From a virus, in the IMG/VR virus record IMGVR_UViG_3300044627_003499, positions 1 to 64,000 of that record: a stretch of DNA of 64,000 nucleotides, one strand, 5' to 3'. The notes below the pieces were generated by a model that saw only the letters and a program-made list of their open reading frames with translations, was not told the DNA's origin and ran no database searches. Shown one piece after another: positions 56,740 through 58,764 of this stretch. A program made the position numbers and the translations under genes. How positions within the stretch are numbered: the stretch's first letter is position 1; each line of letters opens with the position of its first letter.

Positions 56740-57045
56740 ATGCTAACCAAAGAGATTCGCCGCGTCCGCTTGTCGGGTCGCGAATATCACGGCGTCACTT
56801 GCAACAAGCTTGCAGAGAAAGCCGCACAAGAAGCAAGGGCTAAAGGATGGCAGACCTGGACAATGTACAACCAATCAGACGTTTTGGACTGGGCTACCAC
56901 GGTGGCACAGAAACCTGGAACCAACTGGTACATCATCGGTCAATGGATCGAGGATGACGAAGTTGTATACAAGGTCCAAGGCAAACGGCAGGACGTACTG
57001 AAACAGTGGCTCTGCTACACCAACGCCCTTGAACCAAACTACTGA
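56740..57045 (+). CDS. Early-region hypothetical protein
   Basis: MLTKEIRR... after a CAACTCA leader; stop lies inside tRNA-like repeat 1. Confidence 0.55.
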   Translation: MLTKEIRRVRLSGREYHGVTCNKLAEKAAQEARAKGWQTWTMYNQSDVLDWATTVAQKPGTNWYIIGQWIEDDEVVYKVQGKRQDVLKQWLCYTNALEPNY

Positions 57046-57119
57046 TCCGTACAAGCGGGTCCAGGGGTGCAAACCCCCTGGTAGTTATTGCCACACACTG
57101 AGTGTGGCTTCAGAGGACC

Positions 57120-57320
57120 ATGGGACTTCGCTCTTCACTCGGCAAAGCTGTAAGCGCTGGTTGGACTGTGTTCAACCATGAGATGGCTGCAGGTTTGGCC
57201 GAACATCAGATCAATGCTGCTGCTGCTGCTGTTCAACGCAGAAACAAGCATATTGACAGCTTGATCACTGGTGACTACGGACGCTCAACTTCGAGCGGTC
57301 GAAAGATCACCTTTAGCTAA
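57120..57320 (+). CDS. Early-region hypothetical protein
   Basis: GAGG SD then MGLRSS; lies between repeats 1 and 2. Confidence 0.55.
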   Translation: MGLRSSLGKAVSAGWTVFNHEMAAGLAEHQINAAAAAVQRRNKHIDSLITGDYGRSTSSGRKITFS

Positions 57321-57402
57321 CCCTGGTGGGTCAAGGGAGGTTCGATTCCTCCCTTAGTTATTGCCTCCAGCGGAGATAGGCACCGCACAACAGGAGATTC
57401 CT

Positions 57403-57603
57403 GTGGCCAAGCGCGCAATTATTGTTCAATTTCAGGAAGATCATCCCGGCAATCCGGGGTGGTGGAGGTACAGCCGACCTGTGCTTCGGCACGTAACACA
57501 AGTACCAAACAGCTCCACTATTAGGTGGCGATCATGCGGTTCACAGCCTTGCTTTGAGTGCCGTCAGGCACAAAAAGAGTGGGATCTGAAGTACAGCAGC
57601 TGA
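57403..57603 (+). CDS. Early-region hypothetical protein
   Basis: AGGAG SD then GTG; lies between repeats 2 and 3. Confidence 0.5.
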   Translation: MAKRAIIVQFQEDHPGNPGWWRYSRPVLRHVTQVPNSSTIRWRSCGSQPCFECRQAQKEWDLKYSS

Positions 57604-57687
57604 TCCGTTAAAGCGGGTTGGGAGGTGCAAACCCTCCCACAGTTATTACCCCCAGCGGAGATGGGTACCGCATGTTTTATCGTCATC

Positions 57688-57843
57688 ATGACAACTACAT
57701 ACCAGCAACTCCGTCAGTATTTTACTGAACAAGAGTTAGACAACGCAACAATTATTACGCGCCATATTCAACATAATTTTCCGCACATGACATATGCAGA
57801 AATCTACATCAATCTTCTGGTTCAGATGATTGCCGAACGTTAA
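57688..57843 (+). CDS. Early-region hypothetical protein
   Basis: MTTTYQQL...; lies between repeats 3 and 4. Confidence 0.5.
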   Translation: MTTTYQQLRQYFTEQELDNATIITRHIQHNFPHMTYAEIYINLLVQMIAER

Positions 57844-57929
57844 GTACCGGGCGTGATGCCGGGGGATCGAATCCCCCCACTTAACACTTGCCTTCAGCGG
57901 AGATAGGCACCGCACACATGGAGTTATCC

Positions 57930-58220
57930 ATGGATCTGACTACAGGTTGGAAACAACATACCAACGTACCTGGTGGTTATCACCTGGTTTACGTTGATGC
58001 TTTGGTTGGTGAGATATCCATTGTTACCGGACCGCAAGGTTCAGGACTAATGGCGTCTAACAATCCAGGGCAAGAACCCACGTATGAAGTGTGGTTTCCA
58101 GGTATGCGCAATCCAACCGGCCATTTAACACTTGATGAGATTAAAGGAATCATCAAGTACATGCGCCAATGTGAAGAAGAACGCATATGGACAGCGTGTA
58201 GTGAATACGAGAACGATTGA
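57930..58220 (+). CDS. Early-region hypothetical protein
   Basis: GGAG SD then MDLTTGW; lies between repeats 4 and 5. Confidence 0.55.
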   Translation: MDLTTGWKQHTNVPGGYHLVYVDALVGEISIVTGPQGSGLMASNNPGQEPTYEVWFPGMRNPTGHLTLDEIKGIIKYMRQCEEERIWTACSEYEND

Positions 58221-58298
58221 TCCGTAAAAGCGGGAGGCAGGGTGCAAACCCCTGCCCAGTTATTGCCACACACTAAGTGTGGCTCAACTTAACGCAAC

Positions 58299-58487
58299 AT
58301 GAGCCCAACTAAATTTATCGTAATCAGCGTATCCATCTGGATGGTAAGCATGGGTGCTATCAGCCCCATCATTATTCATCAGTTGGATAAAGCAACTGCC
58401 AAACAGTGTTTGACACATGATTGGCCCAAGACTGCACATCAGCTCCATATGGACTGGTGCGCCGCTAACAACTATCCCACTCACTGA
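58299..58487 (+). CDS. Small membrane protein
   Basis: N-terminal hydrophobic helix; QC.THDWP...H..HMDWC. Confidence 0.55.
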   Translation: MSPTKFIVISVSIWMVSMGAISPIIIHQLDKATAKQCLTHDWPKTAHQLHMDWCAANNYPTH

Positions 58488-58488
58488 C

Positions 58489-58686
58489 ATGTATTTCATC
58501 ACACTTGACGGTAAACAGTACCGTCAGTACTCAGCCAACGAGTACGTCGATGCATTGGAAGATGCCGCACAATTGGACCACATCTACAACTCACCAGAGT
58601 TGAATGATGGCGTCCAGGGTACCCATGACATCAGACTTCTCATCCTTCCTGAGATGATGATGTCCGATGTTGAGATGGTCATCTGA
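58489..58686 (+). CDS. Early-region hypothetical protein
   Basis: MYFITLDGKQY...; stop lies inside repeat 6. Confidence 0.5.
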   Translation: MYFITLDGKQYRQYSANEYVDALEDAAQLDHIYNSPELNDGVQGTHDIRLLILPEMMMSDVEMVI

Positions 58687-58764
58687 CCAGGCGTGATGTC
58701 GGGGGATCAAATCCCCCACTCAACAATTGCCACCCACTGAAGGTGGCTTACAACTCAACTCAAC

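What the first reader, a model, noticed from the sequence alone, without database searches (positions are those of the whole stretch)
57037..58748. Array of tRNA-like RNA modules punctuating small early genes
Seen: six spacers share one fold. Closing stems are AACTAC/GTAGTT, TAGCTAA/TTAGTTA, AGCTG/CAGTT, GTTAAGT/ACTTAAC, GATTG/CAGTT and GTTGAG/CTCAAC. Each encloses one or two small hairpins and a T-arm-like stem-loop (GG-TTCGATT-CC, GG-TGCAAAC-CC, GG-ATCGAAT-CC, GG-ATCAAAT-CC), then an unpaired A and a second hairpin before the next RBS. Sequences differ while pairing is kept, and in all six the upstream stop codon lies in or just inside the 5' side of the fold. None has a normal anticodon arm or CCA. 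Inference: acceptor/T-arm mimics that recruit RNase P/Z to cut the early polycistron into units, or decoys for tRNA-targeting host defences, or translation-coupled switches.
Basis: partly seen in the sequence, partly recalled or inferred. Interest (0 to 1): 0.85.

Follow-up and report, generated by a model that had tools for sequence, protein, structure and literature searches.

The report
tRNA-like RNA modules between cyanophage genes
Six spacers between small genes of a freshwater cyanophage carry a conserved RNA fold that copies the acceptor/T-arm half of a tRNA, a widespread undescribed phage element that most likely marks where host tRNA-processing enzymes cut the long early transcript into single-gene pieces.

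Summary
All six modules are at the stated places.

**Structure.** Each has a closing stem that holds the upstream stop codon, then 0-2 small hairpins, then a T-arm with a T-loop. After it come a single-stranded AUU and either a hairpin or an H-type pseudoknot, then the next ribosome-binding site.

**Family.**
- It also occurs in S-EIVl and in marine T7-like cyanopodoviruses.
- Rfam 15 has no match.

**Covariation.** It is strong: 98.5% of cells paired and 9 of 16 pairs compensatory in 136 sequences. On a separately fetched set, 14 of 16 pairs are compensatory.

**tRNA-like measure.** Closing stem plus T stem sum to 12 bp in 155 of 307 modules and to 11-13 bp in 268. This matches the tRNA acceptor/T helix.

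**Stop codon.** The conserved TGA closes a real ORF in 142 of 159 type-1 modules, against 14% for other TGAs.

**Function (inferred only).** Best reading, 0.45: a tRNA-minihelix mimic directs a host endonuclease (RNase Z or E, perhaps P) to cut at the AUU. No RNA data could be had.

**Earlier notes.** This scan had noted the same stretch before, as shuffled repeat halves and as a pseudoknot.

**Verdict.** New variant of a known kind; interest 0.75.

The parts
57040..57089 (+). Module 1 (type 1). Closing stem 57040-44 / 57082-86, with stop TGA at 57043-45. Hairpin 1 at 57046-59. T stem 57061-67 / 57075-81, loop UGCAAAC at 57068-74. Linker AUU at 57087-89.
   Evidence: Sequence; R1 70.9 bits, E 7e-19.
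57090..57122 (+). Plain hairpin 57090-96 / 57102-08, then GAGG and the ATG at 57120 of the next ORF.
   Evidence: The same hairpin sequence follows 20 unique modules elsewhere.
57314..57362 (+). Module 2 (canonical T-loop type). Closing stem 57314-20 / 57354-60, with stop TAA at 57318-20. Small hairpin 57321-30. T stem 57335-40 / 57348-53, loop UUCGAUU at 57341-47. Linker UU.
   Evidence: R1 28.1 bits, E 4.5e-6.
57363..57405 (+). H-type pseudoknot (S1 57363-66 / 57378-81; S2 57370-73 / 57383-86), then a small hairpin holding AGGAG and the GTG start at 57403.
   Evidence: Alignment A2: 5 of 8 pairs compensatory. RBS hairpin.
57598..57647 (+). Module 3 (type 1). Closing stem 57598-602 / 57640-44, with stop TGA at 57601-03. 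Hairpin 1 at 57604-17. T stem 57619-25 / 57633-39, loop UGCAAAC. Linker AUU at 57645-47.
   Evidence: R1 77.8 bits, E 6.4e-21.
57648..57671 (+). H-type pseudoknot (S1 57648-51 / 57663-66, ACCC/GGGU; S2 57655-58 / 57668-71).
57839..57889 (+). Module 4 (type 2). Closing stem 57839-45 / 57879-85, with stop TAA at 57841-43. Small hairpin 57850-52 / 57858-60. T stem 57861-65 / 57873-77, loop AUCGAAU. One unpaired C at 57878. Linker ACUU.
   Evidence: Homologous type-2 modules are listed.
57890..57932 (+). H-type pseudoknot 57890-57913, then a hairpin holding GGAG and the ATG at 57930.
58215..58264 (+). Module 5 (type 1). Closing stem 58215-19 / 58257-61, with stop TGA at 58218-20. Hairpin 1 at 58221-34. 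T stem 58236-42 / 58250-56, loop UGCAAAC. Linker AUU at 58262-64.
   Evidence: R1 75.8 bits, E 2.4e-20.
58265..58301 (+). Plain hairpin 58265-71 / 58277-83, then the ATG at 58299.
58669..58728 (+). Module 6 (type 2, long insert). Closing stem 58669-74 / 58719-24, lying in the last codons of the ORF. Two small hairpins. Stop TGA at 58684-86. T stem 58701-05 / 58713-17, loop AUCAAAU. Unpaired A at 58718. Linker AAUU.
   Evidence: Homologues with changed T stems and closing stems in other contigs.
58729..58767 (+). Plain hairpin 58729-34 / 58742-47, then the ATG at 58765.

Best explanation
**What it is.** Each module is an RNA mimic of the acceptor-stem/T-arm half of a tRNA (a 'minihelix' with a T-loop elbow), embedded in the polycistronic transcript that starts the rightward operon of this S-EIV1-like cyanophage.

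**Proposed action.**
1. Host enzymes that recognise that half of a tRNA cut the transcript endonucleolytically at the 3' edge of the minihelix, in or next to the conserved single-stranded AUU.
2. The most likely enzyme is the tRNA 3' endonuclease RNase Z, or RNase E, which in cyanobacteria also helps to mature tRNAs. RNase P on the 5' side is possible.
3. The upstream cistron keeps its stop codon and ends in a compact tRNA-like knob that blocks 3' exonucleases.
4. The downstream cistron starts two or three bases before a hairpin or pseudoknot that shields its new 5' end and presents its ribosome-binding site.
5. The array would thus do for this phage what RNase III sites do for the T7 early transcript, and what tRNAs and t-elements do for mitochondrial transcripts.

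**Shown:** the fold, its conservation, its dimensions, its fixed place at stop codons, and its spread across unrelated cyanophages.

**Inferred:** that it is cut, where, and by which enzyme.
For: **1. The fold is under selection as RNA on the gene strand.**
- Alignment A1: 136 sequences, 98.5% of cells paired, 357 cells with changes on both sides against 100 in shuffles. The T stem is 99.9% paired, with 6 of 7 pairs compensatory.
- G-U pairs are common in the closing stem (42 and 27 of 136 sequences at two pairs). These would be C-A mismatches on the other strand.
- On loci fetched by a different motif, 14 of 16 pairs, including all four of hairpin 1, show compensatory change. That alignment was fitted to the model.

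**2. tRNA-specific features.**
- The two pairs next to the loop are G-C in 116 of 117 sequences.
- The 7-nt loops are UGCAAAC in 104 modules, AUCGAAU in 43, UGCAAUG in 23, AUCAAAU in 20 and UUCGAUU in 13. The descriptor required C at position 3 and A at position 5, so their constancy among these hits follows from the search.
- The T stem abuts the closing stem on the 3' side with 0-1 free base.
- Closing plus T stems sum to 12 bp in 155 of 307 modules and to 11-13 bp in 268 of 307, as 5+7, 7+5, 6+6 and so on.

**3. The trailer.**
- It is AUU, never CC (tails: ATTG 124, ATTA 22, TATT 22, CATT 12).
- Cytidines just after the discriminator suppress RNase Z. B. subtilis RNase Z contacts only the T-arm and acceptor stem (passages of PMC7479834).
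- Cyanobacterial RNase E prefers U at +2 in single-stranded RNA and affects tRNA levels (abstract and passages of PMC8682795).

**4. Position.**
- There are six modules between seven small ORFs directly after the divergent region. No sigma-70-like promoter lies in the spacers: the one match at 58125-58153 is inside an ORF. Only 1 of the 6 T-arms is flagged as terminator-like.
- In the T7-like phage S-SBP1, modules lie between the first three early ORFs upstream of the RNA polymerase gene, and before the major capsid gene.

**5. Host dependence.**
- The same module occurs in unrelated phage lineages that share Synechococcus hosts.
- This phage encodes no match to the CCA-enzyme, RNase Z or metallo-beta-lactamase families.

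**6. Precedent.** In Arabidopsis mitochondria, t-elements with a conserved T-arm direct RNase Z and RNase P cuts that make mRNA ends, some inside reading frames (passages of PMC1920247).
Against: - No RNA ends were seen. No RNA run holds the phage, and metagenome contigs gave no usable signal.
- An RNase P cut at the 5' end of the closing stem would strip the stop codon from the upstream ORF. In bacteria that should trigger tmRNA tagging, so at least the RNase P half of the idea is awkward.
- A long 5' extension can hinder RNase Z: the archaeal enzymes in PMC7479834 required a mature 5' end.
- The commonest loop, UGCAAAC, has G where tRNAs have U55.
- The 89% in-frame rate of the TGA hints at a link with translation termination that simple processing does not need.
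- Genome compaction could also explain that rate. 34 of 307 modules, among them real tRNAs and chance hits, have no upstream ORF.
- The start codon of many downstream genes sits in its own small hairpin (75 of 81). This points to translational control acting in the same cassette.
Confidence: 0.45

Rival explanations
1. The module, the pseudoknot or hairpin and the RBS hairpin together form an uncut 5'-UTR control cassette. The tRNA-like knob and pseudoknot bind a protein (phage repressor, host S1, a tRNA-binding enzyme) or the ribosome itself. This sets or times translation of the downstream gene, or couples it to termination at the embedded stop codon.
For: - The stop codon of the upstream ORF lies in the 5' half of the fold in 242 of 273 modules that have an upstream ORF.
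- The TGA is in frame in 142 of 159 type-1 modules, against 14% for other TGAs.
- After the pseudoknot, the start codon (GTG in 63 of 81 cases) is paired with bases next to the SD in 75 of 81 cases, with visible compensatory variants.
- Modules also occur ahead of a first gene with no ORF upstream, for example after the leader hairpin.
Against: - The distance from stop codon to T stem varies between subtypes, from about 10 to about 30 nt. A fixed geometry with a terminating ribosome is therefore unlikely.
- The next start lies about 75-90 nt beyond the stop, with stable structures between.
- No candidate binding protein was found.
- The T-loop and the 12-bp ruler are not explained.
Confidence: 0.2
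2. A passive insulator and stabiliser. The compact fold blocks 3' exonucleases and keeps each RBS element folding independently of the neighbouring coding sequence. No tRNA enzyme recognises it. Any cut in the AUU linker is ordinary RNase E decay.
For: - Stable structures flank a short single-stranded A/U linker.
- The cyanobacterial RNase E signature is U at +2 in single-stranded RNA (PMC8682795).
- The downstream hairpin starts 2-3 nt after the linker.
Against: A plain GC hairpin would serve as well. The rival does not explain the conserved T-loop letters, the invariant G-C pairs next to the loop, or the 12-bp sum kept across at least 8 sequence subtypes.
Confidence: 0.15
3. Mainly a DNA-level recombination linker. 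Conserved spacers let small-gene cassettes be swapped between phages, like the promoter-early stem-loops of T4-type phages (recalled).
For: - Near-identical modules flank unrelated ORFs within one genome and in unrelated phage families.
- Module types and downstream elements combine freely: 133 pseudoknot, 140 hairpin, 34 neither.
Against: Compensatory changes and strand-specific G-U pairs show selection on an RNA fold. Recombination may be a by-product, not the reason for the fold.
Confidence: 0.07
4. A decoy or sponge for tRNA-directed host defence or for a tRNA-modifying enzyme.
For: Only the tRNA-like shape.
Against: There is no anticodon arm, the usual target of tRNA nucleases (knowledge recalled). 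The elements sit in cis in mRNAs at fixed gene boundaries rather than as separate abundant RNAs. Nothing in the sequence points to a particular defence system.
Confidence: 0.05

Closest known systems
Plant mitochondrial t-elements (tRNA-like elements at mRNA ends; Forner et al. 2007, PMC1920247, passages read)
   Same: - Non-canonical tRNA-like folds with a conserved T-arm inside mRNA precursors.
- They lie next to or overlap the ends of reading frames.
- They direct RNase Z and RNase P cuts that make mRNA 5' and 3' ends.
   Different: - t-elements are mitochondrial, few per genome, about 74 nt, and derived from tRNAs.
- Here there is a phage family of about 50-nt minihelices with no anticodon arm, arrayed after successive ORFs and coupled to a downstream hairpin or pseudoknot.
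- Processing is not shown here.
Mitochondrial tRNA punctuation; nuclear mascRNA of MALAT1; tRNA-like/pre-miRNA units of murine gammaherpesvirus 68 (all recalled, not read here)
   Same: A tRNA or tRNA-like fold inside a longer transcript is used as the cutting signal for RNase P and/or RNase Z. In the herpesvirus case the tRNA-like part is followed directly by hairpins.
   Different: Those are eukaryotic or organellar systems, and full or near-full cloverleaves. This is a bacterial virus with a minimal acceptor/T fold and the stop codon inside the stem.
RNase III processing sites of the phage T7 early transcript (recalled)
   Same: Structured intercistronic elements in the host-transcribed early operon. 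In T7-like cyanophage S-SBP1 the modules occupy the spacers between the first early ORFs.
   Different: RNase III sites are long, nearly continuous double-stranded hairpins. These are branched folds with a 12-bp coaxial helix and a T-loop.
Candidate structured RNAs predicted from IMG/VR (PMC10690425, passages read)
   Same: That survey predicted 8,495 candidates from IMG/VR, including 'tRNA or tRNA-like' ones. This family may be among them.
   Different: The main text names five candidates that overlap ARAGORN tRNA calls. None is described as a stop-codon-linked cyanophage array. The supplementary tables could not be opened.

Membership tests
Canonical tRNA gene | Cloverleaf with anticodon arm, detectable by tRNA finders | tested here: not met
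   ARAGORN finds none at 57037-58748. Rfam finds no tRNA at gathering score. The best tRNA-clan match is tRNA-Sec at 18.8 bits against a cut-off of 47.
Canonical tRNA gene | Acceptor plus T stems stack to 12 bp, with the T stem directly joined to the 3' acceptor strand | tested here: met
   The sum is 12 bp in 155 of 307 modules and 11-13 bp in 268 of 307. There are 0-1 free bases at the 3' junction.
Canonical tRNA gene | T-loop consensus U54-U55-C56-R57-A58 closed by G53-C61 | tested here: inconclusive
   - The closing G-C is invariant (116 of 117).
- C at position 3 and A at position 5 are conserved; they were required by the descriptor.
- Position 2 is G in the commonest loop, UGCAAAC.
- Position 1 is A in the AUCGAAU type.
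tRNA-like mRNA processing elements (t-elements, mascRNA type) | Acceptor-like stem plus conserved T-arm inside a longer transcript | tested here: met
tRNA-like mRNA processing elements (t-elements, mascRNA type) | RNA ends mapped at the borders of the fold; cut by RNase P and/or Z; CCA added to the released element | not testable with these tools
   No RNA run holds the phage. Contigs cannot show RNA ends.
RNase III processing site (T7 type) | Long, nearly continuous double-stranded hairpin of about two helical turns | tested here: not met
   The folds are branched. The longest continuous helix is 7-8 bp and the coaxial stack about 12 bp.
Intrinsic transcription terminator | GC-rich hairpin followed by a run of U | tested here: not met
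   Only the T-arm of copy 1 is flagged, 1 of 6. The tails are AUUGCC and similar, not U runs.
tmRNA tRNA-like domain | Acceptor/T fold joined to a tag reading frame; found by the ARAGORN tmRNA search | tested here: not met
   aragorn -t -m on the whole genome gave two tRNA calls and no tmRNA.
Any Rfam 15 family | Score at or above the family's gathering score | tested here: not met
   0 matches in the window. The best match in the region is 22.2 bits against a cut-off of 52.
H-type pseudoknot (for the element after copies 2, 3 and 4) | Two interleaved helices, both kept by compensatory change | tested here: met
   Alignment A2: 107 sequences, 98.2% paired, 5 of 8 pairs compensatory; slid controls 24-44% paired.

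The most novel reading that the evidence does not exclude
Cyanophages of several unrelated lineages carry a portable family of minimal tRNA mimics that hijack the host's tRNA end-processing machinery (RNase Z/E, RNase P, perhaps the CCA-adding enzyme). This would punctuate phage polycistronic mRNAs at stop codons. It would be a bacterial-virus counterpart of the mitochondrial tRNA punctuation model, with each released mRNA carrying a tRNA-like 3' end. A bolder variant: the stop-codon-embedded mimic acts on the terminating ribosome itself.
Probability: 0.4. Interest if true: 0.85.

Novelty: new variant of a known kind. Interest (0 to 1): 0.75.

Why it matters
- If the modules are cut by tRNA enzymes, this would be the first arrayed 'tRNA punctuation' of mRNAs in a bacterial virus. 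It would also be a new route by which phages depend on host RNases.
- It would explain how cyanophages, whose hosts lack some enterobacterial decay pathways, turn long early transcripts into stable single-gene messages.
- It would give synthetic biology a compact (about 50 nt) natural insulator for cyanobacteria.
- Whatever the mechanism, this is a large, well-covarying structured-RNA family absent from Rfam 15. It is common in freshwater and marine viral metagenomes and occurs in cultured phages (S-EIVl, S-SBP1, S-TIP37, S-CBP42), so it can be tested directly.

Tried and rejected
- **Rfam.** Nothing at gathering score. Only chance-level matches in the region.
- **RNA evidence.** The look-up of sequencing runs listed 24 lake-water DNA runs and no RNA holder.
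- **Metagenome scan with the pseudoknot motif.** In the 120 loci read, the 160 motif copies showed no pile-up at contig starts (distances 0, 8, 21, 22, 22, 59 ...). One contig starts exactly at the AUU. Assemblies break at repeats, so this is no evidence.
- **Cellular genomes.** A looser regex check for a T-loop and an ATT/CTT tail passed 1 of the 121, and that one is not a module. This does not exclude modules in hosts.
- **Phage-encoded tRNA enzymes.** No match to PolyA_pol (CCA enzyme), Lactamase_B_2 or the RNase_Z family. The T7 RNA polymerase family search rang in no control genome, so it is uninformative.
- **Protein families.** Pfam on 20 larger proteins found ThyX, DNA polymerase A, SSB, primase-helicase and similar, and nothing RNA-related. 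PHROGs on the nine small ORFs and the 1044-aa protein found 0 families.
- **Closing-stem control by swapping upstream halves between modules.** 93.5% against 56% with at least 5 bp. This is a weak control, because many modules share closing-stem sequences.
- **blastn of copy 4 against cultured phages.** No match.
- **Terminator, RNase III site and tmRNA readings.** Rejected; see the membership tests.
- **Prior description.** Searches listed no paper that describes this element; only the listings were seen, apart from the papers read. The supplements of PMC10690425 are closed, and its catalogue of candidates may include it.
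Full report
**Where the window lies.** The window is bases 1-64000 of an IMG/VR virus record of 85,710 bases that CheckV rates complete. Its only relative among 50,697 GenBank phage records at the DNA level is Synechococcus phage S-EIVl from an arctic lake. The match covers only 7% of a 2.6-kb query, and it falls on the spacers themselves. 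Runs that hold the stretch are lake-water metagenomes.

Genes on the minus strand from about 16 to 55.9 kb form the leftward arm. At 55.9-56.7 kb transcription diverges, and a plus-strand operon runs on through ThyX, DNA polymerase A and SSB.

The finding lies at the very start of this rightward operon. It follows a strong terminator at 56246-56268 and a conserved leader hairpin. The nine small ORFs there match no PHROG family. 'Early' is therefore a reasonable inference from position, not a demonstrated fact.

Reading the sequence and dissecting it gives six modules with one architecture:
- a closing stem of 5-7 bp;
- an insert of 14-26 nt that forms one or two small hairpins;
- a stem of 5-7 bp capped by a 7-nt loop (UGCAAAC three times, UUCGAUU, AUCGAAU, AUCAAAU);
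- the 3' strand of the closing stem, joined directly or after one free base;
- a single-stranded AUU (once ACUU, once AAUU);
- a second structure, and then the next start codon.

The stop codon of the upstream ORF is in the 5' strand of the closing stem (copies 1-5) or in the insert (copy 6).

There are two sequence types:
- Type 1 (copies 1, 3, 5) has a conserved 14-nt hairpin and a 7-bp stem.
- Type 2 (copies 4, 6) has a 3-bp hairpin with a GUGAU loop and a 5-bp G/C stem.
- Copy 2 is a third type with a canonical T-loop.

The second structure is a plain hairpin after copies 1, 5 and 6 and an H-type pseudoknot after copies 2, 3 and 4.

From these I aligned 136 distinct type-1 modules: 3 from the window, 2 from S-EIVl and 131 from IMG/VR. 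On the proposed structure:
- 98.5% of 2176 cells are standard pairs, against 81.3% in shuffles and 28-53% when partners are slid.
- The T stem has compensatory changes at 6 of 7 pairs.
- The closing stem has them at 3 of 5 pairs.
- Hairpin 1 was invariant there, because the search motif fixed it.

To remove that bias I built model R1 and searched the 80 loci that had been fetched by the pseudoknot motif instead. This gave 131 matches, 117 distinct, and 14 of 16 pairs now show compensatory change, including all four of hairpin 1. This alignment is fitted to the model, which favours the structure.

A sequence-free descriptor asked for a T-loop-like 7-nt loop closed by G-C, a stem of at least 5 bp, a closing stem of at least 5 bp, and 0-1 free base at the 3' junction. 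It finds 424 hits (307 distinct) in 1.85 Mb, against 12 in shuffled DNA. The 307 include a few real tRNAs and chance hits.

In the window's own genome the modules are confined to 57.0-58.7 kb.

**What makes it tRNA-like.**
- The two pairs next to the loop are G-C in 116 of 117 sequences.
- The loops keep C at position 3 and A at position 5, with purine at position 4 (the descriptor required these).
- The T stem stacks on the closing stem with no or one intervening base, while all the variable material sits on the 5' side. This is the topology of a tRNA.
- The lengths of the two stems trade off between subtypes (5+7 in 100 modules, 7+5 in 39, 6+5 in 36, 6+7 in 27, 6+6 in 16). The sum is 12 bp in 155 of 307 and 11-13 bp in 268 of 307.
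- Twelve base pairs is the length of the acceptor/T helix that RNase P, RNase Z and the CCA-adding enzyme read (established knowledge, recalled).
- At least eight subtypes with unrelated inserts keep this frame. Subtypes with the canonical UUCGAUU/UUCGACU loop tend to carry a UGGUG stretch in the insert (by eye, not counted). This recalls the D-loop GG that meets the T-loop.
- G-U pairs are frequent in the closing stem, so the fold is selected on the RNA of the coding strand, not on DNA.
- The modules are nevertheless not tRNAs. They have no anticodon arm, no ARAGORN call and no Rfam tRNA match.

**Link to the stop codon.**
- Of 307 modules, 273 have an upstream ORF of at least 40 codons ending at the module.
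- In 170 of those the stop overlaps the closing 5' strand, in 72 it lies in the insert, in 17 downstream and in 14 upstream.
- For type 1, the conserved TGA closes such an ORF in 142 of 159 distinct cases (5 more were dropped at locus edges), against 3615 of 25762 (14%) for all other TGAs on the same strands.
- The last sense codons thus form part of the closing stem, and the 3' strand follows them.
- Thirty-four modules have no such ORF (this count includes the tRNAs and chance hits). In one contig a module follows the conserved leader hairpin directly, and the first S-EIVl module lies about 50 nt after the annotated stop. The link to a stop codon is therefore very strong but not obligatory.

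**The downstream half.** Of the 307 modules, 133 are followed by the pseudoknot type, 140 by a plain hairpin within 12 nt, and 34 by neither.

The pseudoknot (107 sequences) is 98.2% paired, with compensatory change at 5 of 8 pairs in both helices.

After the pseudoknot, 81 of 125 distinct cassettes have an SD-like motif and a start 14-20 nt on. The start is GTG in 63 of them. In 75 of 81 the start codon is paired with bases next to the SD in a small hairpin whose variants look compensatory.

Types of module and of downstream element combine freely.

**Spread.** Model R1 finds:
- two modules in S-EIVl;
- three in the marine T7-like phage S-SBP1, at 75.7, 38.2 and 15.3 bits;
- one in S-CBP42.

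In S-SBP1 they lie after gp01 and gp02, in the host-transcribed early region upstream of the RNA polymerase gene. One lies about 120 nt before the major capsid gene, just after an unannotated 35-codon ORF that ends on the module's TGA. S-TIP37 and a Mediterranean fosmid phage carry the gp01-type module.

In the 120 cellular contigs that matched the 17-mer, no module was found.

Unrelated phage lineages that share Synechococcus hosts thus share the element, while this phage encodes no CCA-enzyme or RNase Z family member. This argues that a host factor reads it.

**Mechanism.** Nothing here shows cleavage.

The anatomy fits best a processing signal read by tRNA enzymes, with the cut on the 3' side:
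- RNase Z contacts only the acceptor stem and T-arm, cuts after the discriminator and is blocked by C's that follow it (PMC7479834, passages). The modules are followed by AUU, never CC.
- Cyanobacterial RNase E prefers a U at +2 in a single-stranded stretch and contributes to tRNA maturation (PMC8682795, abstract and passages). It is an equally good candidate for the same bond.
- Either cut leaves the upstream ORF with its stop codon and a compact 3' knob. It leaves the downstream RNA with only two or three free bases before a hairpin or pseudoknot. That arrangement is known to protect 5' ends from RNase E (recalled).

RNase P at the 5' edge would remove the stop codon. Plant mitochondria tolerate exactly that at nad6 and ccmC (PMC1920247), but in a bacterium it should provoke tmRNA tagging, so I rate it lower.

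The spacers hold no promoter-like site, and only one of six T-arms looks like a terminator. This is consistent with one transcript that needs cutting. The modules sit in the early spacers of a T7-like phage, where T7 itself has RNase III sites (recalled), which supports the analogy.

Against all this:
- no RNA data exist;
- G at loop position 2 is untypical of tRNA;
- a long 5' extension may hinder RNase Z;
- the tight stop-codon link and the sequestered start codons leave room for a translational role.

I put the processing model at 0.45, an uncut translational cassette at 0.2, a passive stabiliser at 0.15, recombination linker only at 0.07 and decoy at 0.05.

**Comparison and novelty.** The closest known things are plant mitochondrial t-elements, mitochondrial tRNA punctuation, mascRNA and the herpesvirus tRNA-like/pre-miRNA units (the last three recalled). 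The element works like these if the model is right, but it shares no ancestry or sequence with them.

It fails the tests for tRNA, RNase III site, terminator, tmRNA and every Rfam 15 family.

Five literature searches listed nothing that describes it. A 2023 survey predicted 8,495 structured-RNA candidates from IMG/VR, and its closed supplement may list this one.

I class it as a new variant of a known kind, with high interest. It is abundant, cleanly supported by covariation, present in cultured phages, and directly testable.

Noticed in passing
window 57387-57405 and 57914-57932; IMG/VR loci: After the pseudoknot, the SD and the start codon sit together in a small hairpin. The start codon is paired in 75 of 81 cassettes. 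The start is GTG in 63 of 81. Variants look compensatory (CAGG/CCUG, ACGG/CCGU, AUGG/CCAU). It looks like a translational operator.
   Followed up: partly
window 56684-56711; L001 about 3658-3690: A conserved leader element (a run of G, then a 5-bp hairpin with a 10-11-nt loop) lies upstream of the first small ORF. It is shared with S-EIVl and several IMG/VR contigs. In one contig a module follows it directly.
   Followed up: no
window 4345-4416 (-): ARAGORN calls a 72-nt tRNA-Leu(CAA) with mismatched pairs and no long variable arm. Rfam gives no tRNA at gathering score anywhere in the window. It may be a degenerate tRNA or another tRNA-like element. A normal 86-nt tRNA-Leu(UAA) lies at 67533-67618 of the genome, beyond the window.
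   Followed up: partly
L333 926-1000 and 1322-1400; L330 about 2490-2570; L329 about 2490-2550: Marine T7-like cyanopodoviruses (S-SBP1, S-CBP42, S-TIP37) carry the same kind of module in their early region and just upstream of the major capsid gene. In S-SBP1 an unannotated 35-codon ORF ends on the module's TGA.
   Followed up: partly
window 59085-59166 and 59407-59500: Beyond the array the spacers change character: terminator-like hairpins followed by T runs (for example 59424-59449), each followed by another hairpin.
   Followed up: no
window 56246-56268 (+): A strong intrinsic-terminator-like hairpin (9 pairs, then a T run) follows the 121-aa ORF 55857-56222, whose product is conserved in S-EIVl. 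The small-gene array therefore probably has its own promoter between 56270 and 56680. No sigma-70 consensus was found there.
   Followed up: partly
window 10172-10217 (+): A weak R1 match (16 bits, E 0.018-0.024) inside the primase-helicase gene. It keeps hairpin 1 and the closing stem but has no T arm, so it is probably chance.
   Followed up: no
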